Part shown: piece by piece, positions 8,888 through 40,209 of the stretch
How positions within the stretch are numbered: the first letter of the stretch is position 1
Layout of the letters: each line of letters starts with the position of its first letter
Source of the DNA: Caldimonas sp.
Lineage (GTDB): Bacteria > Pseudomonadota > Gammaproteobacteria > Burkholderiales > Burkholderiaceae_C
DNA length: 47,798 nucleotides
Assembly (NCBI GenBank): GCA_035493195.1
Contig: DATJIM010000293.1
Location: 1 to 47,798 of the forward strand
Reading direction: 5' to 3'
Position numbers and translations under genes: made by a program
The notes under the pieces: generated by a model
Told to the model about the DNA's origin: nothing
What the model saw: the letters and a program-made list of their open reading frames with translations, nothing else
Database searches by the model: none

Positions 8888-9580
8888 TCAACCGTCGTCG
8901 CGATCGGGCCAGCCCTGCGCGCCGACGAGCGGGACGAACATCACGCCGCCGAGGTCGTCTTCTCGCCACTCGCAGTCGCCGCGTCGCTCGACGAGGATGA
9001 GCCGTTGCACGCCGGGGCCGCTCGCGACCGGAAGGACGAGGCGGCCGCCGATCGCGAGCTGCTCGCGCAGCGCCTCGGGGACCCGCGGCCCCGCCGCGGC
9101 GACGACGATCGCGTCGTAGGGCGCGCCGCTCGGCCAGCCGGCGCTGCCGTCACCTGCGTGGACCGCGACGTTCGTGATGCCGAGCCGCGCCAGCCGTTCG
9201 CGGGCGAGCTCGACGAGCCGCGGGTGGCGCTCGATCGCGTCGACGCGGGCGACGAGCTGCGCAGCGACCGCGCTCGCGTAGCCCGAGCCGGCGCCGACTT
9301 CGAGCATGCGGTCGTCGGCGCCGAGCCGCGCTTCCTGGAGCATCAGCGCGACGATGTACGGCTGCGAGATCGTCTGGCCTTCCTCGATCGGCAGCGGCGA
9401 ATCCTCGTACGCCTCGCCGCGCATCGCCGCGGCGACGAAGGCGTGCCGCGGGATGCGGCCCATCGCCTCGATGACGCGGGCGTCGCGGATGCCGCGCGCC
9501 GCGAGCTGCCGGGCGACCATCCAGCCGCGCTGCTGGCGGGTGTTGGTGTCGTCGTCCACGGCAGCTGCTGCCGATCGCAA
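8888..9580 (-). CDS. pcm: Protein-L-isoaspartate O-methyltransferase
   Basis: IPRHAFV, AYEDSPLPI.EGQTISQPYIVA, LEVGAGSGY, GDGSAGW..APYDAI, FVPL; start uncertain (TTG 9580 or GTG 9559). Confidence 0.92.
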   Translation of the reverse strand: MRSAAAAVDDDTNTRQQRGWMVARQLAARGIRDARVIEAMGRIPRHAFVAAAMRGEAYEDSPLPIEEGQTISQPYIVALMLQEARLGADDRMLEVGAGSGYASAVAAQLVARVDAIERHPRLVELARERLARLGITNVAVHAGDGSAGWPSGAPYDAIVVAAAGPRVPEALREQLAIGGRLVLPVASGPGVQRLILVERRGDCEWREDDLGGVMFVPLVGAQGWPDRDDG

Positions 9581-9584
9581 AGCT

Positions 9585-10760
9585 CTACTGCTGGCGGTGC
9601 GTCTGCAGCCACTGCAGCTTGGCGGCGTAGAGGTCGTGCTGGTTGCGCGTCAGGCTGTTGTCGATCGCGATCGAGAGATGGCGACGCGCCGCGGCCTCGT
9701 CGCCGAGTCGCCAGTCGGCGACGCCGAGCCAGAAGTGGAACTCGTGGTACGTGTCGGCGCGCGCGACCTCGCGCGCGAAGAGCTCGCGGGCAGTGCGCCA
9801 ATCGTTGCGTTGCACCGCCGCCATGCCGAGCTCGAAGAAATAGAACGGCGGGTACGGCTCGAGCGCGGCGAGCCGCGTGCGCGCGCCGCGCGCGTCGGCG
9901 TCGCGGCCCAGCCGCTCGTACGCCATCGCCAGGTTGGCGAGCGCGCGCGTGTCGCGCGGGTCGGCGGCGAGGACGCGCTCGAAGACGCGCGCCGCCTGGC
10001 CGAGATCGCCGTGGCGCAGGTAGACGACACCGAGCGTGTTGAACGCGCCCGCGAAGCCCGGGTCCTTGCGCACGCTCGCCGCCGCCCACGCGTACGCATC
10101 GTCGAGGCGGCCGTCGGCGAGCGCTTCGGCGGCGCGGTTGTTCGCATACATCGCGACGACCGTGCGCTCGTCGATCTCGCGGGTCCGGAATCCGGTGATC
10201 TCCTCGGGCGGCAGGAAGTCGATCGTCAGCTTCGGGACGTCGGTCGCGGCGCGGACGTCGACGAGCCGGCGAGACAGCGTGATGTTGACGTGGCCGCTCG
10301 CGATGAGGAGCGCTCCGGTGCGGCTCCACGTCTCCGGGATCGAGACGGTCTGGTAGCTGACCGGCAGACCGAGCTCCTTGGCGAAGGCCGCCGTCATCAG
10401 GACGAGCGACAGGCAGTTGCCGCTGCGCGAATCGAACGTCGCCGCCGCGGTCTTGGTGAGCCCCGAGTCGTATTCGAGCTTGAGCTGAGCGCGGTGCTGG
10501 AGCGCGTTGGTCAAGGCGAGCTGCGGACCGTCGCGGCGCAGCTGATGCGCGATCTCGGTCTTCAGGAACGAGCGCATCGCGGGACTGACGGTGAACAGGT
10601 CGTCGGTCCGGATCGACTCGTGCGGCGCTGCGAACAGCGCGTCGGCGAGGACGTCGTCGGGAGGGGCCGGCGGCGGCGTCGACGCGCAACCGGCGACGAG
10701 GCAGGCGAGGAGCGCGGCGGCGCTGAAGGCGCCGTGAAGCTGGCGGTGAACGGTCGGCAT
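9585..10760 (-). CDS. Lipoprotein with transglutaminase-like domain and C-terminal TPRs
   Basis: Lipobox LVAG-C; GNCLS / SGHVN / IDF putative Cys-His-Asp triad; TPR-like AFNTLGVVYLRHG, ALANLAMAYERLG. Confidence 0.72.
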   Translation of the reverse strand: MPTVHRQLHGAFSAAALLACLVAGCASTPPPAPPDDVLADALFAAPHESIRTDDLFTVSPAMRSFLKTEIAHQLRRDGPQLALTNALQHRAQLKLEYDSGLTKTAAATFDSRSGNCLSLVLMTAAFAKELGLPVSYQTVSIPETWSRTGALLIASGHVNITLSRRLVDVRAATDVPKLTIDFLPPEEITGFRTREIDERTVVAMYANNRAAEALADGRLDDAYAWAAASVRKDPGFAGAFNTLGVVYLRHGDLGQAARVFERVLAADPRDTRALANLAMAYERLGRDADARGARTRLAALEPYPPFYFFELGMAAVQRNDWRTARELFAREVARADTYHEFHFWLGVADWRLGDEAAARRHLSIAIDNSLTRNQHDLYAAKLQWLQTHRQQ

Positions 10761-10876
10761 GCTGACCCGCAGGGCTCGCGCCGGAAGCGGCGAGGCCTCC
10801 ACTTTCCGCCAACTCGGGCCGCTCTGCCAATGCCGCAAACGCGGATGCGAGCGCGGCAGGGAATAGGCCCGGAAAC

Positions 10877-10900
10877 GGGGAAGGCGCAGGCGCCTTCCCC
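10877..10900 (-). terminator. Probable intrinsic terminator of the hsp20 pair
   Basis: Perfect 10-bp stem GGGGAAGGCG/CGCCTTCCCC with 4-nt loop, 7 bp after the stop; short GTTT tail on minus strand. Confidence 0.65.
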
Positions 10901-10907
10901 TCCGGCG

Positions 10908-11321
10908 TCACTCGACGCGAACGTCGATGCGACGCGGCTTGGCCTGCTCGGCCTTCGGGATGCGCAGCGTCAGCACGCCGTCGCGCAGCCCGGCGTCGAT
11001 CTTCGCGGTGTCGAGATCGCTGCTCAACTCGAAGCTGCGGCGGAAGTGGTTGGCGCGCACTTCTGCGTAGACCGACGTCAGCGTGGTCGATTCACCGAGC
11101 TGGACCGGCGCTTCGATCGTCAGGTTGCGGCCGTCGACGCCGATCGCGAGGTCTTCGCGCGCGACACCGGGCAGGTCGGCGAGCAGCGTGATGCCGCCAG
11201 CGTCTTCGAAGATGTCGACCGGCGGCAGCAGCGCCGGGCCGGTGCGCTGGCTGCTGCGCTGCAGGTTTTGCGGTTGCGTCGACTGCGACGACTCGGTGAC
11301 GGTGTTGGCTTGCGGTTGCAT
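10908..11321 (-). CDS. Hsp20/alpha-crystallin family small heat shock protein
   Basis: PPVDIFED, ADLPGV, FRRSFEL, AGLRDGVLTLRIPK...PRRIDV; GAGGAG RBS. Confidence 0.93.
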   Translation of the reverse strand: MQPQANTVTESSQSTQPQNLQRSSQRTGPALLPPVDIFEDAGGITLLADLPGVAREDLAIGVDGRNLTIEAPVQLGESTTLTSVYAEVRANHFRRSFELSSDLDTAKIDAGLRDGVLTLRIPKAEQAKPRRIDVRVE

Positions 11322-11353
11322 GGTGGGCTCCTCTTGTTCGTGAGCGCTCGGCG

Positions 11354-11830
11354 TCAGCTTGCGCTCGAGACCTGGATCTGGCGCGGCTTGGACGATTCGC
11401 GCTTCGGCACGACGATCTTCAGCACGCCGTTCCTGTACGTCGCCTCGACGCGCGTCGGCTCGGCGTCCTCGGGGAGCGCGATGACGCGGCGGAACTTGCC
11501 CACGAAGCGCTCGCTCGCGTAGACGTTGCGCTCGCCGCCCTTCGCGCCTTCCGGGTTGCCGTTCGCGGCGGTGCGCTCGCCGGCGACCGCCAGGATGCCC
11601 TTCTCGACCGAGACGTCGATCGACTTCGGGTCGATGCCGGGCGCGAACGCGTAGACCTCGAGGGCGTCGGCCGAGGTGCCGACGTTGAGCGCGGGGAACG
11701 CGCCAGCGCGGCCGACCGCGCGGATGCTCGACGGCATCGAGCGGCCCGTGAGCAGCTCGTCGATCCTGTCCTGCAGCTGCTCGAAATCGGCGAACCAGTC
11801 GCCGGCAGTTCTCAACATGGACGGGTACAT
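11354..11830 (-). CDS. Hsp20/alpha-crystallin family small heat shock protein
   Basis: FPALNV, APGIDP, ERFVGKFRRVIALP, ATYRNGVLKIVVPK...PRQIQV; AAAGGAG RBS. Confidence 0.93.
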   Translation of the reverse strand: MYPSMLRTAGDWFADFEQLQDRIDELLTGRSMPSSIRAVGRAGAFPALNVGTSADALEVYAFAPGIDPKSIDVSVEKGILAVAGERTAANGNPEGAKGGERNVYASERFVGKFRRVIALPEDAEPTRVEATYRNGVLKIVVPKRESSKPRQIQVSSAS

Positions 11831-11883
11831 GTCTGTTCGCTCCTTTCGTGTGAATGCGCGGGCGGCTCGCCCGCTTCGGCCGG

Positions 11884-11911
11884 AGATAGGAGCGCACGCG
11901 GCGCTTTCAAG
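11884..11911 (-). promoter_or_regulatory. Sigma32 (RpoH)-type heat-shock promoter
   Basis: CTTGAAA-N13-TCCTATCT upstream of the hsp20 pair, close to consensus CTTGAAA-N13/14-CCCCATnT. Confidence 0.72.
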
Positions 11912-12076
11912 GGCCCGCGCGTAGGCGCAATCCGACGCCGGGGTGCGGCGCGACCCCCGTGTGCGATGCGGCGTTTGGGCATGGTGCGTCGCCGGGGCGC
12001 TGCCTACATTGGCGAGCAACGTCGGAACACCCGACGTTCACTCCCACCACTTGGGCCCACGAGGCGAGGAAACGGT

Positions 12077-12346
12077 ATGAACTTCATCATTTGGCTGATC
12101 GTCGGCGGCATCATCGGCTGGCTGGCGAGCATGATCATGCGCACCGACGCGCAGCAAGGGATCGTGCTCAACGTCGTCGTCGGCATCATCGGCGCGCTGC
12201 TCGGCGGCTGGCTGATCTCGCCGCTGGTCGGCGTCGGCACCATCAACCAGGACGCGTTCAGCTTGCCCGCGATGCTCGTGTCGCTCGTCGGTGCGGTGAT
12301 CCTGCTGGCGATCGTCAACCTGTTCCGCCGCGGCCGCGTCCGCTGA
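12077..12346 (+). CDS. GlsB/YeaQ/YmgE family stress-response membrane protein
   Basis: MNFIIWLIVGGIIGWLAS...NVVVGIIGALLGG...SLVGAVILL. Confidence 0.92.
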   Translation: MNFIIWLIVGGIIGWLASMIMRTDAQQGIVLNVVVGIIGALLGGWLISPLVGVGTINQDAFSLPAMLVSLVGAVILLAIVNLFRRGRVR

Positions 12347-12412
12347 CCGGTCGTTCTTCGAGGGCGGCCTCGCGGCGCGCCCTCTTTCATTCCTGACATC
12401 GAGGAGCAGTCC

Positions 12413-12943
12413 ATGAACAACGACACCAAGACGTATGGCACGACGACGGGCACCGATGCCAACCGCGATCCGCTGACCGGCGCTCCGGGCTCGCACCCGG
12501 TCGGCACGGCCGCGGGCGCGGTGGCAGGCGGCGCCGCCGGCGCCGCGGTCGGCACGGCCGCAGGGCCGGTCGGCACCGTCGTCGGCGCCGCGGTCGGCGC
12601 CGTCGTCGGCGGCCTGGCGGGCAAGGGCATCGCCGAGCAGATCGACCCGACGGTCGAGGACGCCTACTGGCGCGACAACTTCACGAGCCGTCCGTACGCG
12701 ACTGGGTCGACGTACGACGAATACCGTCCCGCGTATCGCTACGGCTGGGATTCGTACTCGAAGTACCCGGGCCGCCGCTTCGACGAGGTCGAGTCCGACC
12801 TGTCGCGCGACTGGGACCGCACCAAGGGCGAATCGAAGCTGACCTGGGACCGCGCCAAGCTGGCGACCAAGGACGCCTGGAACCGCGTCAGCGACAACGT
12901 CGAGCGCGCCATCCCCGGCGATTCGGACCGCGACGGCAAGTAG
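12413..12943 (+). CDS. Glycine-zipper-containing hypothetical protein (stress-associated type)
   Basis: GAGGAG RBS; NRDPLTGAPGSHPVGT, glycine zipper, EDAYWR...PAYRYGW...W.RAK.A.KDAW. Confidence 0.8.
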   Translation: MNNDTKTYGTTTGTDANRDPLTGAPGSHPVGTAAGAVAGGAAGAAVGTAAGPVGTVVGAAVGAVVGGLAGKGIAEQIDPTVEDAYWRDNFTSRPYATGSTYDEYRPAYRYGWDSYSKYPGRRFDEVESDLSRDWDRTKGESKLTWDRAKLATKDAWNRVSDNVERAIPGDSDRDGK

Positions 12944-12961
12944 GCCGCGCGTCCTTCGACC

Positions 12962-12987
12962 AAAGCGCCCTTCGGGGCGCTTTTTTG
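12962..12987 (+). terminator. Rho-independent terminator
   Basis: AAAGCGCCC-TTCG-GGGCGCTTT stem-loop with T-tract, 18 bp after stop. Confidence 0.88.
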
Positions 12988-13014
12988 CGATGCCCCCGCC
13001 GTCGAAAGTGCAAC

Positions 13015-14349
13015 ATGCGCCCGCGTAAGCGCGGGCCCACCCGGTTCGCCCTGCTGCGCGAACGCTTCGGCACGAAGACCCTCGTCATGGCCGTCCTCGC
13101 CGCGATCGTCGTCACGCTGCTCGTCGCGCTGGTCGTCGTCAACGCCGGCAGCGGCGAGAAGAAGATCCAGCAGCGGATCGAGCACCTCTATGGCGTCGAG
13201 GACCCCGAGTTCCTCCACGTCATGGGCGTGCTGCTCGGGCCGCCGGTCGTCGTCGGCAACCGCTACCAGGTGCTCGTTAACGGCGACCGCATCTTCCCGT
13301 CGATGCTCGCGGCGATCCGCGGTGCGCAGAAGACGATCGACTTCGAGACCTACATCTACTGGTCGGGCGACATCGGCAAGGCGTTCGCCGATGCGCTCGC
13401 CGAGCGCGCGCGCGCAGGCGTCCACGTCCACGTGCTGCTCGACTGGGTCGGCTCGGCGAAGATGGAGGACAACCTGATCGACGAGTTGAAATCGGCCGGG
13501 GTCGAGATCGAGAAGTACCACCCGCCGCACTGGTCGCACCTCGGGCGGCTGAACAACCGGACGCACAGGAAGCTCCTCGTCGTCGATGGCGCCGTCGGCT
13601 TCACCGGCGGCGTCGGGATCGCCGACAAGTGGACCGGCGACGCGCAGGATCCCGACCACTGGCGTGACACGCACTTCCGCATCGAGGGCCCGGTCGTCGC
13701 GCAGATGCAGGGCGTCTTCATGGACAACTGGATCAAGACATCGGGCGCGGTGCTGCCCGGCGCGGAATACTTCCCCGGGCTCGCGCCCATGCAAGGCGGC
13801 GGCCCGGCGCAGGTGTTCAGCAGCTCGCCGACCGGCGGCAGCGCGAGCATGGAGCTGATGTACCTGATGGCGATCACCGCCGCGAAGCGGACGATCCGCC
13901 TCTCGAGCTCGTACTTCGTGCCGAACGAGCTCGCGGTGAAGACGATGGTCGAGGCGATGCGGCGCGGCGTGAAACTGCAGATCATCGTTCCCGGCGCGCA
14001 CACCGACACCGAGACCGTGCGCAGCGCGTCGAAGGCGCGCTGGGGCGATCTGCTGGCGGCCGGCGCCGAGATCTACGAGTACCAGCCGACGATGTACCAC
14101 TGCAAGGTGATGATCGTCGACGAGTTCATGGTCTCGAGCGGGTCGACCAACTTCGACGACCGATCGTTCCGCCTCAACGACGAGGCCAATCTCAACATCT
14201 ACGACCGCGCGTTCGCCGCCGAGCAGGTCGCGATCTTCGACGCCGACCTGGCGAAGTCCCGGCGCATCGATCTCGCGACCTGGCAGGCGCGGCCGCTGCG
14301 CGAAAAGCTCGTCGAACACCTCGCGTCGCTGCTCGGATCGCAACTCTGA
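13015..14349 (+). CDS. cls: Cardiolipin synthase / phospholipase D family
   Basis: Two HKD motifs (HRKLLVVDG, HCKVMIVD), WRDTH, GSTNFD.RS..LNDE; N-terminal TM. Confidence 0.9.
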   Translation: MRPRKRGPTRFALLRERFGTKTLVMAVLAAIVVTLLVALVVVNAGSGEKKIQQRIEHLYGVEDPEFLHVMGVLLGPPVVVGNRYQVLVNGDRIFPSMLAAIRGAQKTIDFETYIYWSGDIGKAFADALAERARAGVHVHVLLDWVGSAKMEDNLIDELKSAGVEIEKYHPPHWSHLGRLNNRTHRKLLVVDGAVGFTGGVGIADKWTGDAQDPDHWRDTHFRIEGPVVAQMQGVFMDNWIKTSGAVLPGAEYFPGLAPMQGGGPAQVFSSSPTGGSASMELMYLMAITAAKRTIRLSSSYFVPNELAVKTMVEAMRRGVKLQIIVPGAHTDTETVRSASKARWGDLLAAGAEIYEYQPTMYHCKVMIVDEFMVSSGSTNFDDRSFRLNDEANLNIYDRAFAAEQVAIFDADLAKSRRIDLATWQARPLREKLVEHLASLLGSQL

Positions 14350-15134: not shown

Positions 15135-15581
15135 CTAGGCAGCGGCGATCTCGACGTCGTCGAAGGCGAGCTCGATCGTTTCCATCAAGACCGAGCCGTC
15201 GAGGGCATCGAGCGGCGAGTACGCGAGGCTCACGGGCCGGGCATTGCGAAGCCGCCAGGTCATCCGCACCGTCGCGTGGTCGTCGGCGAGAAGCTTGACG
15301 GTCACCGTTCGCCGCGGCGGTGCGCGACCGTCGCGCGCCTGCCGCCACCAGGCGTAGAGGTCGAGCGCACCGGTGGCGCCGCGGCGCAGCAGGACGCGAT
15401 CGGCGAGGGGCGCTGTTGGCGTCGCGCCGACCGACGGCAGCGCAGCACCCGGCTTCGCGGTGAAGGCACCGAAGACCACCGCGGCGAAGCCGCCCGCCTT
15501 GCCGGCGCCGATCTCGACGACGAAGTTCGCGTTCAGCAGCGGGCGCTCGCGCGCTGCCGCCGCCTTCTTCGCCGCGGCCAT
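15135..15581 (-). CDS. Divergent phage-tail tube-like protein (T4 gp19/Afp1-Afp5 family)
   Basis: Colinear with neighbour: NFVVEI, GF..V, LRRG..G..DLYAW, RTVTV.L...D, TW.L..A.P, E.IELAFD. Confidence 0.72.
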   Translation of the reverse strand: MAAAKKAAAARERPLLNANFVVEIGAGKAGGFAAVVFGAFTAKPGAALPSVGATPTAPLADRVLLRRGATGALDLYAWWRQARDGRAPPRRTVTVKLLADDHATVRMTWRLRNARPVSLAYSPLDALDGSVLMETIELAFDDVEIAAA

Positions 15582-16034
15582 CTATTCGAGCTCGAGCCGC
15601 TCGTAGGCGAGCACGATCTCCTCCATCGCGACGTCGTTGCCGCGGCCGTTGAGCGGGCCGCTCGAATACTTGACGATGCGCGCGCGCAGCAGCTTCCACG
15701 TCTGCACGACCTGGCTGTGGTCCTCGCTCTGCAGCTGGATCGTCACGGTGCGCAGCGCGTTCTGGTTGCCGTTGCGAATGTCGTTCAGCCAGCTGTAGAG
15801 GTCGAGCGCGCCGATCACCCCGCGCTTCATCGTGACGTCGGTCGCCTTGTTGAGCCCGGTGATCTTGATCGGGCTGTTCTCCTTGGAGTTGCCGTTGCGG
15901 TACTCGACGACCGCGACCTCGGTCGAGATCGCGCTCACGTCCTGAAATCCCGCTTGCGGGCCCTCCGTCGTTCCGCTCCCGAGGTCGACGAGGAAGTTGA
16001 ACTGCGTGTACGGGCGTTCGCGCGCGACGGCCAT
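15582..16034 (-). CDS. Phage-tail tube protein (T4 gp19-like, contractile injection system Afp1/Afp5 type)
   Basis: PY.QFNFLV, GFQ.VS, VEYRNGN, KITGL....DVT.KRG, W.L..A...K.S.G.LN..GNDVA.EE..L.YE; GAAGGGAG RBS. Confidence 0.9.
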   Translation of the reverse strand: MAVARERPYTQFNFLVDLGSGTTEGPQAGFQDVSAISTEVAVVEYRNGNSKENSPIKITGLNKATDVTMKRGVIGALDLYSWLNDIRNGNQNALRTVTIQLQSEDHSQVVQTWKLLRARIVKYSSGPLNGRGNDVAMEEIVLAYERLELE

Positions 16035-16096
16035 CTCGCTCTCCCTTCGAGTGGTGGCGGCGCATTCTCGCCGCATCGCCGCGGTCGGCGCCAGCG

Positions 16097-24161: not shown

Positions 24162-24347
24162 TCAGATCTTGTCGATCGCGTCCTTGACCTTTTCCTTGGC
24201 GTCGCCGACCTTCGACTGCACCTTGCCGGCGGCCTTGTCGGCCGTGCCCTCGTCGCGCAGGTTCGGGTTGCCCATCGCCTCGCCCGTTTTTTCCTTGACG
24301 TTGCCCTTGGCCTCTTCCATCCGGCCCTTGACCTGGTCCTTGTTCAT
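24162..24347 (-). CDS. CsbD family general stress protein
   Basis: MNKDQVKG...KGNVKE..G...G...L..EG..DK..GKVQ..VGDAK. Confidence 0.92.
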   Translation of the reverse strand: MNKDQVKGRMEEAKGNVKEKTGEAMGNPNLRDEGTADKAAGKVQSKVGDAKEKVKDAIDKI

Positions 24348-24493
24348 GTCTGTACCTTTCTCTTCAGTGGGACGCGGGCGGTCGCCGAAACGGCTGCCCG
24401 TTGCGGCACTCTGGGGCAATCGCCGCCTGGTTGGTGTCGGCACCGACTGTCGCGCGGCGTAGGAAAGCGTCGCTCTCCGGCGCAGGCAGCGCC

Positions 24494-30228: not shown

Positions 30229-31182
<954 letters not shown>

Positions 31183-31245
31183 GCGAGCGCGCGATCGGGC
31201 GTGCCGGCCGGCTCGTCGGCGCGCGATCGCGGCCCGGGAGCGTCC

Positions 31246-34200
31246 ATGGCGAGCGGCAGCAGCACGAACGACATCACCTTCATCGTTCCCGGGCAGGCGC
31301 AGGACGCCGCGCCTCCGAGCACGCGCGGCGCCCTCAAAGCGGCGGTGCGGGTCGGCACCGAACGCGGCGGCGGCGAGCCGGTGCGCGTCAGCGCGCGGCC
31401 CGGCCGCGACGTCGTCGTCCTCGAGATCGCCAATGGGCCGACGCTCGTCCTGCACCCCGCCGCGGCGCGCGACCTGATGCTTGCGCAGAGCGCGTCGGTG
31501 ACGCGCGATGCGCTCGCCGGCACGCGCGGCAAGCCGAGCGAGATCCTCGTTCCCGCGCAGCTCGGCTGGCCCGGGCTCGAAGCGGAGGCGACGCGCGGGA
31601 CGACGCGCGGTTGGCTCGGCCAGGCGCTGCTCACGGGCTTTCAGGTGCTGACCGGCGACGCGCTCGACCCGGCTGCCAAGCTCGCCGCCGCGGCGGTCAC
31701 GAAGAAGGTCGACGCCCAGGTCGATGTCGGCGTCTACCGACTCGACGCCAATTCGCTCGCGTCGCTGAAGGGCAGCGGCGCGAAGCTCGACATCGTGCCC
31801 GCCGCCGCCGACGGCGGTCCCCTTCTCGTCTTCGTGCACGGCACGTTCTCGGACACCGTCGGCACGTTCGGCAAGCTCTGGACGTTGCACAGCGCGACGG
31901 TTCGCCAGCTGTTCTCGAGCTACGACGACCGCGTCTACGCGCTCGACCACCCGACGCTCGGCACGAGCCCGATCGGCAACGCGCTCACGCTGGTGCGCGC
32001 ATTGCCCGTGGGCGCACGCATCCATCTGGTGACGCACTCACGTGGCGGCCTCGTCGCCGAGGCCGTCTCGCGCGCCTGCGCCGGCGGCGACTCGATCGGC
32101 GAGGACGTGCTCGCGCTCTTCGCCGGCGACGGCTTCCAGCAGCACCGCAGCGACCTGCGCGCGCTCGCCAAGGAAGCGAAGGCCAAGGGCATCCGGTGCG
32201 AGCGCCTCGTCCGCGTCGGCTGCCCGGCGCGCGGCACGCTGCTCGCATCGAAGCGGCTCGACGCGTATCTCTCGATCCTCACGTGGTGCCTCGGCCTGGC
32301 GAGCATTCCGGTCGCCGCCGAGGTGGTCGACTTTCTGCACGAGGTCGCGCGCCGCCGCTCCGAGCCTGCCGAGCTGCCCGGGCTCGAAGCGATGACTCCC
32401 CAGAGCCCGGTCATCGCGTGGCTGAACAACGCCGCCGACACGATCCCCGGCGAGCTGCGCGTCATCGCCGGCGACATGGAAGGCGACTCGATCGGCTCGT
32501 GGGTCAAGACGCTTCTCTCCGACGCGTTCTACTGGACCGACAACGATCTGGTCGTGCAGACGCGCTCGATGTACGGCGGCGCGCCGCGCGCCAAGACCGC
32601 GAGCGGCAGCGGCGCCCGCTTCCTGCTCGACAAGGGCGGCAAGGTCTCGCACTTCAACTACTTCAGCAACGAGCGCACCGTGCAGGCGATCGCGAGCGCG
32701 CTGCTCGACGACCAGCCTGCGGGCTTCGCGGCGATCGGGCCGCTGTCGTGGGCCGGCGAGGACGCGAGCGGAACGCGCGCCGCCGTCGCGGTCGCGCGCT
32801 CGCGCGGCGCCGCTGGCGCGGGCGCGGGGGAGCGGCCGGCGGTGTTCGTGATCCCCGGGATCGTCGGCTCGAACCTGAAGAAGGACGGCAAGCGGATCTG
32901 GCTCGGCTTTCGCATCGTCAACAACCTCAAGGCGCTCGCGTGGGATCCGTCGACCGCGTCGAGCGTCGAGCCCGACGGCCCGATCGGCAATCTCTACGGC
33001 GACTTGATCGAGCGGCTGGCCGACAGCCACGAGGTGATTCCGTTCGGGTACGACTGGCGGCGGCCGATCGAGGACGAAGCGCGCCGGCTCGCCTCCGAAG
33101 TCGACATCGCCCTCACCGCGCGCGCGAGCAGCCAACAGCCGGTGCGCATCGTCGCCCACTCGATGGGCGGCCTCGTCGCGCGCACGATGGCGCTCGAGAA
33201 GCCCGAAACGTGGACGCGCATGATGGCGCGCGACGGCGCGCGCTTTCTCATGCTCGGCACGCCGAACGGCGGCTCGTGGTCGCCGATGCAGACGCTGTCC
33301 GGCGACGACACCTTCGGCAACGCACTCGCCGCGTTCGGATCGCTGTTCGACAATATCGGCGCGCGCGAGGTCATGGCGGGGATGCCGGGCTTCCTGCAAC
33401 TGCAGGCGGCGTTGCTCGACAAGACGTTCGGGCTCGATCGCAGCGAGACGTGGCAACGGCTCGCTGCGGAAGACCTGCAGCGGCTGCTCGACCGCAGCCT
33501 CTGGCACCTCGAAGGCGTGCAGAAGACGATCTACGGCTGGAGCGCGCCGCCGCAACCGACTCTCGACCTCGCGGTCGCGCTGCGCCGCCGCCTCGACGCG
33601 CAGGCCGGCGCCTTCGCCGGCGACGGCAAGACGCTGCTCGTCGTCGGCCGCGCGCCGTTCACGCCGGGCGGCATCGTGATGGCCGAGAGCGGCCTCGAAT
33701 ACACCGAGGCGGTCGGCGGCGGCGACGGTCGCGTGCCGCTCACGAGCGCCGTCCTGCCCGGCGTGCGGACGTGGAAGTTCGACGCCGCGCACGGCGACCT
33801 GCCGTCGGTCGCGCAAGCGTTCCCCGCCTACCTCGAGCTGCTCGAGAGTGGCGAGACGGCGCTGCTCGAGGCGCTCGATCCGACGAGCGTGACGGCGCTG
33901 CGCTCGGCGCCCGCAGCGGCGACGGCGGGCGCGCGCAGCCGGCCTTCGCGCGGCGTCCAGCCGTCGACGCCGCCGTCGACGCCGGCCGACGTTCTCGGCG
34001 CCGGCATGCGCGCTCCGAGCGAGCCGGCGCGCAGCGCGAGCGCGGGCCGCGCGTTGCACGTCTCGGTGCTCAACGCAGACTTGAAGTTCGTCCACCAGCC
34101 CCTCGTCGTCGGCCACTACCGCTCGCTCGCGCTCACCGGCACCGAGGCGGTCGTCGACCGTCTGGTCAGCCGTGCGATGAGCCGCTCTCTCGCCGCGGGC

Positions 34201-36816
34201 CTCTATCCCGAGGCGATCGGCACGCACCAGATCTTCGGCAACGTCCGCAAGGACCCGAACAACGTGCTCGCGATGGCACGTCCACTCGCGGTCATCGTCG
34301 CCGGGCTCGGCGAAGAAGGAAAGCTGCGCGCGGTCGACCTCGTCTACACCGTGCGTCAGGCGGTGATCGCGTACGCGCAGCGGCTCGCCGAGAAGGAGAG
34401 CGGCGTGCCGGCCGAGTTCGAGGTCGCGGCGACGCTGATCGGCAGCGGCGGCACGGGCATCAGCGCCGGCAGCGCGGCGCGTCTCGTCGCGCAGGGGACG
34501 TGGGAGGCCAACCAGAAGCTGCACGACAGCGGCTGGCCGCAGGTCGGGCGGCTGATCCTCGTCGAGTTCTATCTCGATCGCGCGAGCGAGGCGTGGCGCT
34601 CGCTCCAGGTGCAGGCGACGGCGGCGCCGAGCCAGCTCAAGGTCGTCGGCTTCGTGCAGTCGGGCGCCGGTGCCCTGCGCCGATCGCTCGACTCGAGCTA
34701 CCGCGGCGCGTCGTACGACTTCATCAGTGCGACGCTCGGCAAGCCCGACGACGGCGGTGCGCCGACGATCACCTACACGCTCGACACCAAGCGCGCGCGC
34801 ACCGAGGTGCGTGCACAGCAGACGCAGACGACGCTCGTCAAGGAGCTCGTCGCCAAGGCGTCGAACAGCGCCAACCGCGATGGCCAGATCGGCAGCACGC
34901 TGTTCGACCTGCTCGTGCCGGTCGAGATGGAGCCTTTCCTCGGCGGCACGAGCGAGATGGTGATCGAGCTCGAGCGCGCGACCGCGGCGCTGCCGTGGGA
35001 GGTGCTCGACACGTCGTCGGCCGAGCTCTCGGGAAGCGACCCGCGGCCGTGGGCGATCCGCAGCAAGCTGCTGCGCAAGCTGCGCACGAAGGAGTTCCGC
35101 TCGCAGGTCTCGGACGCGAGCGCCGACGGCAGCATCCTCGTCATCGGTGAGCCGATGGTCGACGAGTCGATGTATCCGCCGCTGCCCGGAGCGCGCGCGG
35201 AAGCGATCGCGGTCGCGACCCGGCTGACGTCGGGTCCTGCCGGCGTCGACGCGGCGCGAGTGCGCGCGCTGACCAGCGGCAACGACGACGCGCGCAACAT
35301 CATCAACGCGCTCTTCGAGCGGCCGTACCGCATCGTCCACGTCGCCGGGCACGGCGCGCCTGGCGCCGACGGCGGCGTCGTCCTGTCCGGCGGCACCTAT
35401 CTCGGCGCCGCGGAAGTGAAGGCGATGCGCGTCGTCCCCGAGCTCGTCTTCCTCAACTGCTGCCATCTCGGCGCGCTCGACGCCAAGACGGTGCTCGCGC
35501 CGTACGACCGCGCCGAGTTCGCGGCCACGATCGCCGAGGCGCTGATCGAGGTCGGCGTGCGCTGCGTCATCGCCGCGGGCTGGGCGGTCGAGGACAAGCC
35601 GGCCGAGCTGTTCGCGACGACGTTCTACGACGCGCTCCTCTCGGGCAGCCGCTTCATCGACGCCGTTGCGGCGGCGCGCACTGCGGCATGGCGTGGCGGC
35701 GACGGCGGCAACACGTGGTCGGCGTACCAGTGCTACGGCGATCCGGGCTGGACGTGGCAACGCGACGTCGGCGATGCACAGCGGCAGAGCGCATCGCCGA
35801 GCGACGAGTTCGCCGGCGTCTCGTCGCCACCGGCGCTGACGCTCGCGCTCGAGACGATCTCGATCACGCTGCGTTTCGGCGGCGACATCGATCCGGCCAG
35901 GCAGAAGATCCTCGCCCAGGCGCAGCGCGACAAGATCCGCTTCCTCGAGGAGAAGTTCGCCGCGCTCTGGGGCAGGATGGGCGCGGTCGCCGAGGCGTTC
36001 GGGCTCGCCTATGCAGACGCGCGCGACGTCGACAAGGCGATCGACTGGTACCGCACCGCGGTCCACGCGGACGATGGCAGCGCGTCGTTCAAGGCCGCCG
36101 AGGAGCTCGGCAACCAGCTCGCGCGCCGCGGCGAGTCGAATCCGGACCCGACCGCAGGGCGCCGCGACGTCGAGGAGGCGATCGCGCGGCTCGGCAAGCT
36201 GGTCGTGATCCAGCCGACGGTCGAGCGCGAGGCGCTGCTCGGCTCGGCGTACAAGCGACTCGTGATGATCGAGAGCCGTGCCGACGCTGCCGCTGCGGGC
36301 GCGCGCGGCGGGCGCCGCGCGAAGTCGCAAGCGGTCGCGGGCGATCGCCTCGTGGCGTTGCGCGCGATGGTGCTGCACTACGGCAACGCCGAGCGCCTGG
36401 CGCGCGAGGCCAACGCCGACAATCTCTACTACCCCGCGAAGAACGGCATCAGCGCCGAGATCAGGCTCGCCTTCCTCGAGCGGCGACCGGCCGAGCTCGC
36501 GGTCGATCGAATGCGAGCGGTGCAGGAGTCGCTCGCGCGCGCCGCCAGCCAGAGCCCGGACTTCTGGTCGGTCGTCGGCCTGATCGAGCTGCGTGTCCTC
36601 GAAGCTGTCGCTGCGCAGCGACTCGCCGACACGTCGGGCGCGCTGATCGCCGAGTTCAGCGATCTGAAGGCGCGCGTGCCGGCGCGCGGCATGTGGGACT
36701 CGGTGCACTCCGAAGCGCGCTTCACGCTCGAACCGTATCTCGGGATCGCGAGCGCTGCGGAGAAGCGCGCCGCGACCGCGCTGCTCAATGCGCTTGCCGA
36801 GATGGCGCGCACGTGA
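31246..36816 (+). CDS. Large multidomain protein: two alpha/beta-hydrolase (lipase-like) domains, CHAT caspase-like protease, C-terminal TPR-like region
   Basis: FVHGTFS...THSRGG; IPGIVGS...YDWR...AHSMGG...LGTPNGGS...GDGRVP...HGDL; LPWE...HVAGHG...FLNCCH...AGWAV.D...YQCYGDP; LGSAYKRL helical repeats. Confidence 0.88.
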   Translation: MASGSSTNDITFIVPGQAQDAAPPSTRGALKAAVRVGTERGGGEPVRVSARPGRDVVVLEIANGPTLVLHPAAARDLMLAQSASVTRDALAGTRGKPSEILVPAQLGWPGLEAEATRGTTRGWLGQALLTGFQVLTGDALDPAAKLAAAAVTKKVDAQVDVGVYRLDANSLASLKGSGAKLDIVPAAADGGPLLVFVHGTFSDTVGTFGKLWTLHSATVRQLFSSYDDRVYALDHPTLGTSPIGNALTLVRALPVGARIHLVTHSRGGLVAEAVSRACAGGDSIGEDVLALFAGDGFQQHRSDLRALAKEAKAKGIRCERLVRVGCPARGTLLASKRLDAYLSILTWCLGLASIPVAAEVVDFLHEVARRRSEPAELPGLEAMTPQSPVIAWLNNAADTIPGELRVIAGDMEGDSIGSWVKTLLSDAFYWTDNDLVVQTRSMYGGAPRAKTASGSGARFLLDKGGKVSHFNYFSNERTVQAIASALLDDQPAGFAAIGPLSWAGEDASGTRAAVAVARSRGAAGAGAGERPAVFVIPGIVGSNLKKDGKRIWLGFRIVNNLKALAWDPSTASSVEPDGPIGNLYGDLIERLADSHEVIPFGYDWRRPIEDEARRLASEVDIALTARASSQQPVRIVAHSMGGLVARTMALEKPETWTRMMARDGARFLMLGTPNGGSWSPMQTLSGDDTFGNALAAFGSLFDNIGAREVMAGMPGFLQLQAALLDKTFGLDRSETWQRLAAEDLQRLLDRSLWHLEGVQKTIYGWSAPPQPTLDLAVALRRRLDAQAGAFAGDGKTLLVVGRAPFTPGGIVMAESGLEYTEAVGGGDGRVPLTSAVLPGVRTWKFDAAHGDLPSVAQAFPAYLELLESGETALLEALDPTSVTALRSAPAAATAGARSRPSRGVQPSTPPSTPADVLGAGMRAPSEPARSASAGRALHVSVLNADLKFVHQPLVVGHYRSLALTGTEAVVDRLVSRAMSRSLAAGLYPEAIGTHQIFGNVRKDPNNVLAMARPLAVIVAGLGEEGKLRAVDLVYTVRQAVIAYAQRLAEKESGVPAEFEVAATLIGSGGTGISAGSAARLVAQGTWEANQKLHDSGWPQVGRLILVEFYLDRASEAWRSLQVQATAAPSQLKVVGFVQSGAGALRRSLDSSYRGASYDFISATLGKPDDGGAPTITYTLDTKRARTEVRAQQTQTTLVKELVAKASNSANRDGQIGSTLFDLLVPVEMEPFLGGTSEMVIELERATAALPWEVLDTSSAELSGSDPRPWAIRSKLLRKLRTKEFRSQVSDASADGSILVIGEPMVDESMYPPLPGARAEAIAVATRLTSGPAGVDAARVRALTSGNDDARNIINALFERPYRIVHVAGHGAPGADGGVVLSGGTYLGAAEVKAMRVVPELVFLNCCHLGALDAKTVLAPYDRAEFAATIAEALIEVGVRCVIAAGWAVEDKPAELFATTFYDALLSGSRFIDAVAAARTAAWRGGDGGNTWSAYQCYGDPGWTWQRDVGDAQRQSASPSDEFAGVSSPPALTLALETISITLRFGGDIDPARQKILAQAQRDKIRFLEEKFAALWGRMGAVAEAFGLAYADARDVDKAIDWYRTAVHADDGSASFKAAEELGNQLARRGESNPDPTAGRRDVEEAIARLGKLVVIQPTVEREALLGSAYKRLVMIESRADAAAAGARGGRRAKSQAVAGDRLVALRAMVLHYGNAERLAREANADNLYYPAKNGISAEIRLAFLERRPAELAVDRMRAVQESLARAASQSPDFWSVVGLIELRVLEAVAAQRLADTSGALIAEFSDLKARVPARGMWDSVHSEARFTLEPYLGIASAAEKRAATALLNALAEMART

Positions 36817-36918
36817 GCCGTCAGCGGCCGTCGCGGCGGACGACCGGTGATCGACCCCTTCGGCGACGGCGTCGGGGCCTTGCCGAGGAAGATCGACGAC
36901 CTGTCGTCGACCGCGTCG

Positions 36919-37704
36919 CTAGCGGCCGCCGGTGATTTCCAGGACCGAGCCCGTCGTGTAGCTGGAGCGATCGGAGAGCAGCCAGACGATGGCTTCGCCG
37001 ACTTCCTCAGCCGTGCCGGCGCGGCGCATCGGTAGCTGCGGCGCCATCTGCTCCGCGCGGCCGGGAGCGCCCCCCGAGGCATGGATCTCGGTCGCGATGA
37101 TTCCCGGGCGCACCGCGTTGACGCGGATGCCTTCGCCCGCGACCTCCTTGGCGAGGCCGATCGTGAACGTCTCGATCGCGCCCTTGGCGGCGGCGTAGTC
37201 GACGTACTGCGCCGGGCCGCCGAGCTTGGCGGCGGCCGACGACACGTTGACGATCGCGCCGCCGGCGTGCGCCCCCGGCGCAGCCGCCACTGGCCGCGTC
37301 GTCATCCGCAGCACCGCCTCGCGCGCGCAGTAGAAGCTGCCGAAGACGTTGATCGCGAACATGCGCTGCAGCCGCTCGACCCCGATCGCGTCGACGCGCG
37401 CGGCGAGGTCGACGACGCCGGCGTTGTTGACGAGCCCGGCGAGCGGCGGCAGCGAAGCGTCGATCGCCGCGAACATCGCGCGCACCTCGTTGTCGTTCGC
37501 GACATCGGCTTGAACCGCGAGCGCGCGGCCACCGGCGCCGACGATCGCGGCGACGACAGCGTCCGCCGCGGCGCGGTCGCGCGCGTAGTTGACCGCGACC
37601 GCCCAACCGGCGGCGGCTGCGATGCGGCACGTCGCCGCGCCGATGCCGCGGCTGCCGCCGGTGACGAGCACGGTGCGCATCGCTGCGCCCGGCTCATTCG
37701 TCAT
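36919..37704 (-). CDS. SDR family oxidoreductase
   Basis: TGGSRGIG, NNAG, NVSS, YAAAK, RVNAVRPG; start 37704 or 37680. Confidence 0.93.
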   Translation of the reverse strand: MTNEPGAAMRTVLVTGGSRGIGAATCRIAAAAGWAVAVNYARDRAAADAVVAAIVGAGGRALAVQADVANDNEVRAMFAAIDASLPPLAGLVNNAGVVDLAARVDAIGVERLQRMFAINVFGSFYCAREAVLRMTTRPVAAAPGAHAGGAIVNVSSAAAKLGGPAQYVDYAAAKGAIETFTIGLAKEVAGEGIRVNAVRPGIIATEIHASGGAPGRAEQMAPQLPMRRAGTAEEVGEAIVWLLSDRSSYTTGSVLEITGGR

Positions 37705-38767
37705 CGTCGCCCCGCGCGTCGTCGCCTTCGCCGTTGCCGTGCTCCTTCGCCTGCTTGTCGAGGATCGCCTGCATCGGCGCGAGCCCATCGATGAAACGGT
37801 CGACCGACTTCGGCTTGGCGAGGCGCAGCTGCGGCGGGAAGAGGTGGTTCATGTAGAGCTCCTCGCCGAGGCGCCCGGTGCGCTGGACGTTGAACCAGAG
37901 CGAGAGCGCGACGCCGACGACGAAGCCGGTCGCGGCGACGCCGCGCATGAGCCTGCGCCGCGACGGCTCGACCGCGAGCAGGTGGAAGTAGATCGCCGCC
38001 GCCGCGGTCGCGTAGACGGCGACGAAGCTGAAGTCGGTCAGCCACGGCCACGAGAACGCGAACGCGAAGAGCGGCGGGACGACCGAGAGCGCGAGCAGCA
38101 CCAGGCTGGCGACGACGAAGACGCGGACGTGCCAGCCGAAGTGGCTCTGTCGCGTGAACGTCTTCGAGAGCAGCGCCCAGAGGCCGCACCAGATCGCGCC
38201 GCCGGCGATCGTCGACAGAACAACGGTGCCGGCGCTGCGCACGAGGGCCTCGGGGTCGGTGTCGATCCACACCGACGCGAGGACGAACAGAAGGACCGCG
38301 ACAGCGAAGCCGAGCGTCGGCGGCCAGCGGTGGTCGGTGTCGGCGACGGCGCTCATCGGCTGCTCGGCGGCGAGCGCGTCGCTCGGCAGGCGCAGGCGCA
38401 GCTGAGCACGGCCGATCTGCAACTCGACGCCGCGGCCGTCGTCGACGATCTCGCGCGCCGCGCCGCCGGCGACGCGATCGCGGCGGCCGACGACGACGCC
38501 GTTCCTCGTTTCGCCCGCGGCGACGACGACCCTCGCCGGCGCCGCGTCGCCGGCTGCGACGAGGTCGATCGTCGCGTGGTGGGCGGCGACGTGCGGGTCG
38601 CTGAGGACAATCGTGTTGTCGAGCGCGCGGCCGATCGTGACCGGCCAGCGGTCGATCCGCCACGACTGCCGAACCAGGCCGTCGCGGTCGACGATCTCGA
38701 GCAGAGCGGGCGCCGGCGGCGCCGCCAGCGCGCTCGGCTCGATCTGCGCTAGTGCGGCGCTACCCAT
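37694..38767 (-). CDS. FHA-domain membrane protein
   Basis: IGRALDNTIVLSDPHVAAHHA...RNG FHA pattern followed by about 5 TM segments. Confidence 0.85.
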   Translation of the reverse strand: MGSAALAQIEPSALAAPPAPALLEIVDRDGLVRQSWRIDRWPVTIGRALDNTIVLSDPHVAAHHATIDLVAAGDAAPARVVVAAGETRNGVVVGRRDRVAGGAAREIVDDGRGVELQIGRAQLRLRLPSDALAAEQPMSAVADTDHRWPPTLGFAVAVLLFVLASVWIDTDPEALVRSAGTVVLSTIAGGAIWCGLWALLSKTFTRQSHFGWHVRVFVVASLVLLALSVVPPLFAFAFSWPWLTDFSFVAVYATAAAAIYFHLLAVEPSRRRLMRGVAATGFVVGVALSLWFNVQRTGRLGEELYMNHLFPPQLRLAKPKSVDRFIDGLAPMQAILDKQAKEHGNGEGDDARGDDDE

Positions 38768-40209
38768 CGGTATGCGTCGAGATAGTGCCGGGCGAGGCGC
38801 TGCGCGTTGGCGAAGCTCACGCCCTGCGCGTCGAAGCGGCCCTGCACGCCGGTCTGGCTCTGGTCGAGCGTCGCGACGAGGACGGCGACGTCGTACAGCT
38901 GCGGCAGCTTCTTGTACGCGCGCATGCAGACGACGGCGCGCAGCGGCAGGCCGTCGCGGTCGATGTAGTCCTCCTCGCAGCGCGGCTTGGTCTGGTGCTG
39001 CGACGACAGCCGCACGAACGACTCGTTGCGAAAGCTCGCCGCGTAGCGCGACGCGAAGCGCAAGGCCCCGAGCTTGGTGCCGTCGTAGCTCTCGTGGCGC
39101 AGGCTGATCGTTCCGGTCGTGAAGTCGCCGACGAAGATGCGCGTGTCCATCACGCAGTCGGAGCGCTCGAAGTCGAGGCCGCCGGTCTGCGACACGGTGC
39201 TCGTCCCCCAGCAGCGCATGAAGACGTCGGGCGGCACCGGGACGCGGTAGCGCGGGTGCGTCGCCTCCTTCCAGCCCTGCGCGATGAAGCGGTCGGTGAG
39301 CGTCGCCTGGTGCTTGAGCAGCTGCTCGTCGACGATCGGGTACGCCGAGCCGACGAGCGGGGCGGCGTCCTTGCCGCGCGCGAGCAGCGCGCTCGCGAAC
39401 TCGCCGGGAACGAGAAAGCTGACCTGCTCGCCGTCGATGCGGCGCGCGACGTTGACGCCGACGACGTGGCCTTCCTCGTCGAGCGCGGGGCCGCCGCTCA
39501 TCCCCGCCGAAAGCGCGCCGCCGAAGAAGATCTGCGGATAGAAGCTTCGCTTGACGAGGCCGTTGTACGTGCCCTGCGTCACCGCGAAGCCGACGTCGAG
39601 CGGGTTGCCGAGCGAGTAGATGCGCTCGCCTTGCGCGAGCGGCTCGTTCGCCGGTCGGAACGCGAGCGCGTCGAAGCGCTTGCCAGCGCCGCTTGCTGCG
39701 CTCGGCGCGGCGTCGCCGGCGCGCAGCAGCGCGAGGTCGTGGAGGACGTCGAGCTGCAGGATCGTGAGCGGCGCCTCGCGGCCGTCGGCGGTGACGTAGA
39801 CGAGGTCGTGCTGCTCGGGCTTGAGCGCCGCCTCGCTGACGACGTGGAAGTTGGTGAGGATGTGGCCCTGCGGGGTGACGAAGAAGCCCGAACCGACCGA
39901 CGTCTGGCTGGCGCGCCCCTTCAGCACCGTGCGGATCTGAACCAGCTGCGAGCGCGCCTGCTCGTAGATCTTGCGCGCCGAGAGCGACACCGGCGCGGTC
40001 GGCACCGCCACTGCCGAGGCAGGCGATGCGGGCCCTTGCGCTTCGCTCGGCGCCGGGGGCGGCGCGGGCTCGGGACGGGGCGCGGCGGCCGCGGGAACGA
40101 CGATGCAGACGATGGCGGAGGCGATCAGCGCACCTGCCAGCCGGGCCGCGAGCGTCGGCGCGATGCCGACGAAGGCCGCGCCGAGAGAGGACGGCCCGAT
40201 CGCTTTCAC
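38749..40209 (-). CDS. Trypsin-like serine protease (S1) with Cys-containing C-terminal domain, no PDZ
   Basis: GSGFF, TNFHVV (His), DLALL (Asp), GMSGGP (Ser); N-terminal signal/TM. Confidence 0.88.
   Translation of the reverse strand: MKAIGPSSLGAAFVGIAPTLAARLAGALIASAIVCIVVPAAAAPRPEPAPPPAPSEAQGPASPASAVAVPTAPVSLSARKIYEQARSQLVQIRTVLKGRASQTSVGSGFFVTPQGHILTNFHVVSEAALKPEQHDLVYVTADGREAPLTILQLDVLHDLALLRAGDAAPSAASGAGKRFDALAFRPANEPLAQGERIYSLGNPLDVGFAVTQGTYNGLVKRSFYPQIFFGGALSAGMSGGPALDEEGHVVGVNVARRIDGEQVSFLVPGEFASALLARGKDAAPLVGSAYPIVDEQLLKHQATLTDRFIAQGWKEATHPRYRVPVPPDVFMRCWGTSTVSQTGGLDFERSDCVMDTRIFVGDFTTGTISLRHESYDGTKLGALRFASRYAASFRNESFVRLSSQHQTKPRCEEDYIDRDGLPLRAVVCMRAYKKLPQLYDVAVLVATLDQSQTGVQGRFDAQGVSFANAQRLARHYLDAYRWVAPH

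What the first reader, a model, noticed from the sequence alone, without database searches (positions are those of the whole stretch)
15135..16034. Sheathless two-gene cassette of contractile-injection-system tube proteins
Seen: two abutting gp19/Afp1-type tube genes (stop and start adjacent at 15582/15581), intact, strong RBS, host-like codons, between a diguanylate cyclase and a hydroxybenzoate monooxygenase. No sheath, baseplate, spike, PAAR, AAA ATPase or other phage gene lies within 15 kb left or 31 kb right. Established: such tubes normally sit directly after the sheath gene in eCIS, T6SS-iv or tailocin loci. Inference: a domesticated stand-alone nanotube or filament, an interchangeable tube module for a CIS encoded elsewhere, or a decoy that poisons phage tail assembly.
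Basis: partly seen in the sequence, partly recalled or inferred. Interest (0 to 1): 0.76.

Follow-up and report, generated by a model that had tools for sequence, protein, structure and literature searches.

The report
Sheathless tail-tube with loopless partner ring
Many soil and freshwater bacteria keep, under strong selection, just two genes of a phage-tail-like injection machine and none of the rest: an intact tube protein and a copy that has lost its ring-stacking loop, which likely together build a self-seeded, non-firing tube inside the cell whose job is untested.

Summary
Observation confirmed, with one correction: the two genes are not equivalent. T1 (16034-15582) is a full eCIS main-tube protein, 66-76% identical to tubes inside complete eCIS loci, with an invariant stacking hairpin. 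T2 (15581-15135) keeps the tube core but has that hairpin replaced by a 20-54-residue variable linker, and has a basic outer helix. The T1-T2 pair occurs in 29 genomes (Burkholderiales, Acidobacteriota) in at least 8 gene contexts. 25 of 28 tested have no sheath match, including two closed genomes. Selection is purifying (dN/dS 0.06 for T1, 0.08 for the T2 core, like neighbouring enzymes). No relative has a CIS at this site, and T2 was never seen in a CIS locus. So it is not a simple remnant or a spare part. Best model, inferred: T1 polymerises and T2 forms the blunt end ring that replaces initiator and baseplate, giving a cytoplasmic sheathless tube. Rivals: short cargo-holding ring stack, or tail-assembly decoy. 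Binding and expression are not shown. This scan reported a similar sheathless tube pair before on other DNA (e1-7345555); I found none in print.

The parts
15582..16034 (-). T1, intact eCIS main-tube (Cis1/Afp1/gp19-type) protein, 150 aa
   Evidence: PF06841 115.5 bits; best PDB match AlgoCIS tube 7adz_1a E 1.4e-22; AlphaFold pLDDT 80, Foldseek top hit 7adz_1a; dN/dS 0.061 over 35 sequences
15840..15911 (-). T1 beta2-beta3 stacking hairpin (residues 42-65)
   Evidence: E44-N49, K57, G60 invariant in 27 of 27 sheath-less T1; dN/dS 0.044; spacing 35 residues in 34 of 34; long strand pair in the model
15135..15581 (-). T2, loop-less tube paralogue, 148 aa, translationally coupled to T1
   Evidence: PF06841 62.1 bits; profile match to T1 99.8% except the hairpin; core dN/dS 0.082 over 34 sequences
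15402..15461 (-). T2 variable Ala/Pro-rich linker in place of the hairpin (about residues 41-60)
   Evidence: alignments; GFxEV-to-LRRG spacing 20-54 residues in 34 sequences
15297..15347 (-). T2 basic helix-loop segment (about residues 79-95), predicted to face outward
   Evidence: median charge +4 in 37 of 54 T2-type rows where the segment was found, against 0 to +0.5 in T1; outward position inferred from tube structures
16040..16047 (-). Shine-Dalgarno-like AAGGGAGA of T1
   Evidence: sequence; GAGG/GGAG-type sites before T1 in relatives
16064..16069 (-). conserved -10-like hexamer GAGAAT, candidate own promoter
   Evidence: A[GC]AAT at -50..-19 in 15 of 17 genus loci, 0 of 7 eCIS T1, 0 of 10 pair loci outside the genus; background 83 of 1007 host genes; not found by the sigma-70 scan

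Best explanation
The pair is a conserved, stand-alone two-gene module derived from an eCIS main tube, in which T1 likely stacks into a sheathless tube in the cytoplasm and the loop-less T2 is predicted to form the blunt end ring that seeds it in place of the lost initiator and baseplate. Shown: module status, selection, absence of the other parts, hairpin kept in T1 and lost in T2, descent of T2 from the main-tube lineage. Inferred: in tail tubes each ring's beta2-beta3 loop reaches into the ring below, so the bottom ring of a free tube is the one ring that needs sockets but no loop; that is the pattern T2 shows. T2's basic outer segment would tether that end to an anionic surface (membrane or nucleic acid), and the T1:T2 ratio would set length, as there is no tape measure or cap. 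The tube cannot fire. Its most likely use is as a scaffold or container for protein cargo in the lumen; that last step has no direct evidence.
For: Pair in 18 of 49 congeners and 11 further genomes; T1 directly before T2 in 71 of 71 metagenome loci with room, no CIS gene in 80 of 80; no sheath match in 25 of 28 pair genomes, including closed G193 and G1023; dN/dS 0.061 and 0.082 against 0.055-0.146 for seven neighbours; hairpin invariant in T1, replaced in T2; T2 clade (18 rows, 99/99 support, all from sheath-less loci) groups with T1-type main tubes and not with Afp5-type tubes; a second lineage of intact plus loop-less pairs exists (L048, L156, L195). Literature passages: loop deletion abolishes tube growth in T5 and SPP1 and gives hexameric rings in YSD1; SPP1 tube protein self-polymerises (PMC8718954); monomers add to the socket face (PMC10034513); eCIS tubes stack by beta-loop intercalation on Pvc5/Pvc7 (PMC12546770).
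Against: No T1-T2 interaction, ring or tube was observed or modelled; the T2 fold prediction failed (pLDDT 41.7). In P74-26 the loop is also needed within rings, so loop-less T2 may not close a ring alone. T5 tube protein needs a trigger to polymerise. Loop-intact singletons of the T2 clade (L180, L194) stand without any T1, so the clade can work without the pair. T1 shows some relaxation against eCIS T1 (dN/dS 0.064 in 27 versus 0.023 in 7; about 12 positions near-fixed in eCIS vary in orphans; groups unequal and eCIS rows probably saturated). No cargo or partner gene is conserved. The loop evidence comes mostly from siphophage tubes, not eCIS tubes.
Confidence: 0.5

Rival explanations
1. T1 and T2 form only a short closed stack or mixed ring (Hcp-like soluble hexamer or two-ring cage) that binds or chaperones proteins; no long tube is made because coupled T2 ends growth at once.
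For: Loop-less YSD1 tube protein gives rings (PMC8718954 passage); translational coupling could give near-equal amounts; T1 is better codon-adapted than T2 in only 15 of 19 loci; no length-control genes.
Against: T1 hairpin invariance fits repeated T1-T1 stacking, though one T1-T2 contact could also keep it; T1 has the strong SD and T2 does not.
Confidence: 0.2
2. The pair is a decoy that poisons assembly of incoming phage tails (or of a resident or incoming eCIS): loop-less T2 acts as chain terminator, T1 as a sink.
For: Loop deletion blocks tube growth; tail-assembly defences exist (Tab, PMC10884400 abstract; Tai, PMC11364771 listing); pair and T1-type eCIS do not share a genome in the congeners seen (G011 has the eCIS and an empty site).
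Against: No PADLOC match for T1 or T2; housekeeping and stress-gene context, not a defence island; slow evolution; T1 matches only 2 of 50,697 phage records, at 31%; T2 has no viral-contig or plasmid match.
Confidence: 0.15
3. Deletion remnant of an eCIS; T2's loop loss is decay.
For: Orphan T1 are intermixed with eCIS T1 in the tree, with weak support; mild relaxation of T1; patchy presence, 18 of 49; T2 linker dN/dS 0.41 on an unreliable alignment.
Against: Core dN/dS 0.06-0.08; no stop or frameshift in the genus matches; T2 absent from 8 of 8 eCIS loci with a T1 orthologue; 16 of 16 congener sites fetched without the pair hold no tube trace or CIS gene; transfer as a unit into at least 8 contexts and two phyla.
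Confidence: 0.08
4. Spare tube module for a CIS or T6SS encoded elsewhere in the genome.
For: 4 of 28 pair genomes have CIS parts elsewhere (G314, G316, G325, G983); T6SS sheath in 2 of 5 tested; G000 is only 81% complete.
Against: Closed G193 has no match to PF04984, PF17482, baseplate J, VipB, Pvc16 or CIS_tube (the last two searches had no positive control, and baseplate J missed 1 of 3 known eCIS); closed G1023 has no sheath match; G314's own CIS has its own tube (28% to T1).
Confidence: 0.07

Closest known systems
eCIS inner tube Cis1/Alg1/Afp1/Pvc1 (PDB 7adz_1a, 7b5h, 6j0b, 6rao)
   Same: T1 has the fold and hairpin and is 66-76% identical to main tubes of complete eCIS loci.
   Different: No sheath, baseplate, spike, cap or Afp7 in the locus or, mostly, the genome; followed by a loop-less paralogue rather than a second sheath.
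Tube initiator rings Afp5/Pvc5/Alg5 and Afp7 (gp54, gp48)
   Same: T2 is predicted to play the same positional role, the first ring under the tube.
   Different: T2 descends from the main-tube lineage, not from Afp5-type tubes; scores 28.5 bits on CIS5_fam, cut-off 260; Afp5-type tubes keep the loop; no LysM domain.
Orphan hcp genes of T6SS
   Same: Tube gene away from its machine.
   Different: Orphan hcp is used by a T6SS in the same genome (recalled; listings); here the machine is usually absent, and the family is gp19/PF06841.
Cytoplasmic CIS of Streptomyces (PMC10066040 passages)
   Same: CIS parts acting inside the producing cell.
   Different: It is complete and acts by sheath contraction, which this pair cannot do.
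Tail-assembly defences Tab and Tai
   Same: Possible interference with tail assembly.
   Different: Tab is prophage-encoded and targets tape-measure-dependent assembly (abstract and section titles); no defence context here.

Membership tests
gp19/Afp1-type tube family (PF06841) | profile score over the curated cut-off | tested here: met
   T1 115.5, T2 62.1 bits, cut-off 28.2; TIGR02241 met by T1 (94.9) but not T2 (50.5, cut-off 62.4)
gp19/Afp1-type tube family (PF06841) | beta2-beta3 stacking hairpin | tested here: inconclusive
   met for T1, not met for T2
gp19/Afp1-type tube family (PF06841) | hexameric rings that stack into a tube | not testable with these tools
   needs EM; the complex predictor was not available
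eCIS (Afp/PVC/AlgoCIS) | sheath gene Afp2/3/4 | tested here: not met
   (own genome, 81% complete); 25 of 28 pair genomes without PF04984 match
eCIS (Afp/PVC/AlgoCIS) | baseplate J Afp11, gp25, spike Afp8 | tested here: not met
   baseplate J in 3 of the pair genomes only
eCIS (Afp/PVC/AlgoCIS) | cap Afp16 and initiator Afp7 | tested here: not met
   tblastn of seven eCIS loci against own genome hits only T1/T2 among CIS genes; family searches in 5 genomes negative but without positive control
Afp5/Cis5 tube initiator | CIS5 model cut-off and grouping with Afp5-type tubes | tested here: not met
T6SS orphan Hcp | T6SS sheath VipB in the genome | tested here: not met
   absent in G000, G019, G193; present in G310, G207
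anti-phage defence system | match to known defence models or defence-island context | tested here: not met
anti-phage defence system | protection in phage challenge | not testable with these tools
   bench test

The most novel reading that the evidence does not exclude
A minimal two-protein, self-seeding nanotube: bacteria have repeatedly turned the needle of an injection machine into a sheathless cytoplasmic tube by evolving a loop-less ring that nucleates it, closes one end and anchors it through a basic belt, with T1:T2 ratio replacing the tape measure. This would be a new class of bacterial intracellular filament or compartment.
Probability: 0.35. Interest if true: 0.85.

Novelty: new variant of a known kind. 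Interest (0 to 1): 0.64.

Why it matters
eCIS surveys required a baseplate gene next to the tube gene (PMC6899500 passages), so tube-only modules fall outside them. A conserved, mobile, 0.9-kb module in closed genomes without any sheath shows that a contractile-tail part has a second life. Two 150-residue proteins are easy to express and image, so the question of how tail tubes are seeded and ended without baseplate or tape measure becomes directly testable, and a natural loop-less ring would be a simple tool for controlling tube length.

Tried and rejected
AlphaFold of T2 failed (pLDDT 41.7) and was not used for fold search. The complex predictor was not available, so T1-T2 binding has no verdict. 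ESM Atlas gave only gp19 clusters and no model. Expression: 6 RNA runs held 5-10% of the words; four were laid; one listed 184-nt contig in a soil metatranscriptome is identical to T1 15710-15893 at depth 3, but contigs cannot exclude DNA, so this is not counted as evidence. The T1-loop dN/dS of 1.000 is an unoptimised fit (kappa also 1.000); it was redone on a fixed tree (0.044). The count of T1 upstream of T2 was wrong (split matches) and was redone. The tree is a quick tree with long-branch warnings; (73 rows, 103 core columns, loop left out) was used instead; monophyly of orphan T1 was not tested and is unresolved. Signal peptide: no hydrophobic stretch (max 19-residue mean 0.57 and 1.45), so export was rejected. 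No sigma-70 promoter or minus-strand terminator by consensus scan. No conserved third gene across contexts. Large searches scored only 10-33 candidates per genome, so counts outside the genus are lower bounds. Eight literature searches listed no paper on sheathless tube pairs; no supplements were read, and eCIS survey tables could list partial loci.

Full report
Observation. Two abutting minus-strand ORFs, T1 (16034-15582, 150 aa) and T2 (15581-15135, 148 aa), both pass Pfam PF06841. They lie between a GGDEF gene and an FAD monooxygenase plus cupin dioxygenase. Of 47 genes called in the window, 46 were scanned with Pfam and none is a CIS or phage structural gene. The genome (G000, 81% complete) has no other PF06841 match and no match to two sheath families, baseplate J, gp25 or the spike OB domain; all proteins of seven eCIS loci searched against it hit only T1/T2 among CIS genes. 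The closest named records are MAGs labelled Caldimonas, Rhizobacter and Burkholderiales.

Distribution. The pair is in 18 of 49 congeners (in two it is split over contig ends), 17 of them at the same site and one (G314) elsewhere. It is also in G046, G193, G207, G323, G1023 and in Acidobacteriota G324-G326, G983, G1356, G1359: 29 genomes, G322 being counted with G310 because both proteins are identical. At least 8 gene contexts were seen with no shared third gene. In 80 metagenome loci found with T2, T1 ends directly upstream in 71 of 71 with room (9 had none), and none holds a CIS gene, 25 being 5 kb or longer; many of these loci are close kin and not independent. Of 28 pair genomes tested with PF04984, 25 have no match; G314, G325 and G983 do, and G316 has a baseplate match, so 4 of 28 carry CIS parts elsewhere. 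Closed genomes G193 (100%) and G1023 (99%) have the pair and no sheath match with either family. The same searches found the sheaths of T1-type eCIS at E about 1e-20.

Not a remnant at this site. The dioxygenase site was fetched from 16 congeners that lack the pair there; none has a tube trace or CIS gene, including G011, which carries a full eCIS with a 75% T1 orthologue on another contig. Eight eCIS loci with T1 orthologues (66-76%) run cap, unknown, sheath, T1, second sheath, Afp5-type tube, Afp7, Afp8; none has T2. Codon-model dN/dS is 0.061 for T1 (35 sequences), 0.112 for whole T2 and 0.082 for its core (34), against 0.055-0.146 for seven neighbours. Against this, orphan T1 is somewhat less constrained than eCIS T1 (0.064 in 27 versus 0.023 in 7; unequal and probably saturated). 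A -10-like A[GC]AAT sits about 30 nt before T1 in 15 of 17 genus loci, also where the upstream gene changes, against 8% of host genes and 0 of 7 eCIS T1, which suggests an own promoter in the genus.

Anatomy. T1 folds as an eCIS tube (pLDDT 80; top hit AlgoCIS 7adz_1a). Its beta2-beta3 hairpin has 8 residues invariant in 27 of 27 orphans, dN/dS 0.044, and fixed length in 34 of 34. T2 aligns to T1 throughout except there: the hairpin is replaced by an Ala/Pro-rich linker, spacing 20-54 residues. T2 also has a basic helix-loop segment (median +4 against 0). Neither protein has a signal peptide-like stretch. A profile search found 1164 clusters at E up to 0.001 (mostly ordinary tubes); the top 150 include many loop-less forms and loop-intact forms with the same motifs (output partly cut). 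On core columns only, T2, loop-intact singletons (L180, L194) and the loop-reduced partners of a second lineage of pairs (L048, L156, L195, L183) form one clade of 18 rows (99/99), all from sheath-less loci, sister to T1-type main tubes (100/97) and apart from Afp5-type tubes. Long branches may inflate this grouping.

Mechanism. From passages read: the beta2-beta3 loop folds onto the ring below; deleting it stops tube growth in T5 and SPP1 and yields hexameric rings in YSD1; SPP1 tube protein self-polymerises while T5's needs a trigger (PMC8718954); monomers are proposed to add to the socket face, and in P74-26 the loop also holds rings together (PMC10034513); eCIS tubes stack by the same loops on Pvc5 and Pvc7 (PMC12546770; PMC8894135). 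In a tube without baseplate the bottom ring needs sockets but no loop. T2 shows that pattern and T1 keeps its loop, so I infer a T1 tube seeded and ended by a T2 ring, cytoplasmic and non-contractile (0.5). A short ring stack (0.2), a tail-assembly decoy (0.15), a remnant (0.08) and a spare part (0.07) are the rivals. No binding, assembly or expression was shown, and the physiological job, most likely holding cargo or serving as a tethered scaffold, has no direct evidence; the stress-gene neighbourhood holds only within the genus.

Known versus new. T1 is a member of the eCIS tube family; the locus fails every other eCIS membership test. The eCIS survey required afp11 with afp1/5 (PMC6899500 passages) and would not list it. 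Eight searches listed no paper on such pairs; supplements were not read. Earlier notes of this scan describe a sheath-less tube pair in a Gemmatimonadota genome and other orphan-tube modules; a look-up by sequence found no look-alike. I did not check their DNA. Verdict: real, conserved, selected module; new variant of a known kind; interest 0.64.

Noticed in passing
window 30229-40209: Caspase-like peptidase beside a 1856-aa DUF7379/lipase-like/CHAT/TPR-S protein, followed by FHA and trypsin-like genes; possible signalling or defence module.
   Followed up: no
window 8888-14349 and 24162-24419: General-stress-type cluster: PCMT, two Hsp20, transglycosylase-associated protein, glycine-zipper protein, phospholipase D (cardiolipin synthase-like), CsbD; long catalase in congeners.
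   Followed up: partly
L180:9507-9962, L194:9499-9951: Loop-intact, sheath-less single tube genes of the T2 clade; similar proteins are named in Rhodoferax/Albidiferax records.
   Followed up: partly
L048:8848-9725, L156:9519-10407, L195:8597-9502, L183:8652-9987: Second lineage of intact plus loop-reduced tube pairs with no CIS gene in the fetched stretch; in L183 the order is reversed and a 129-aa unknown gene precedes.
   Followed up: partly
L143, L179, L055: A PQQ dehydrogenase gene lies next to or two genes from the pair in three different contexts; may be chance.
   Followed up: no
L140:10058-10510 and L141:69-521 (G207): Two copies of T1 with the same upstream ProQ, arginase and decarboxylase-like genes in one assembly; duplication or strain mixture.
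   Followed up: no
L040:4637-7456, L142, L144: T1-type eCIS loci carry an unusually long (about 940-960 aa), divergent second sheath gene between the two tube genes.
   Followed up: no
L155, L169, L182, L185, L187, L202-L206: Further single tube genes with no CIS gene in the fetched stretch, some with a 129-131-aa unknown gene upstream.
   Followed up: no
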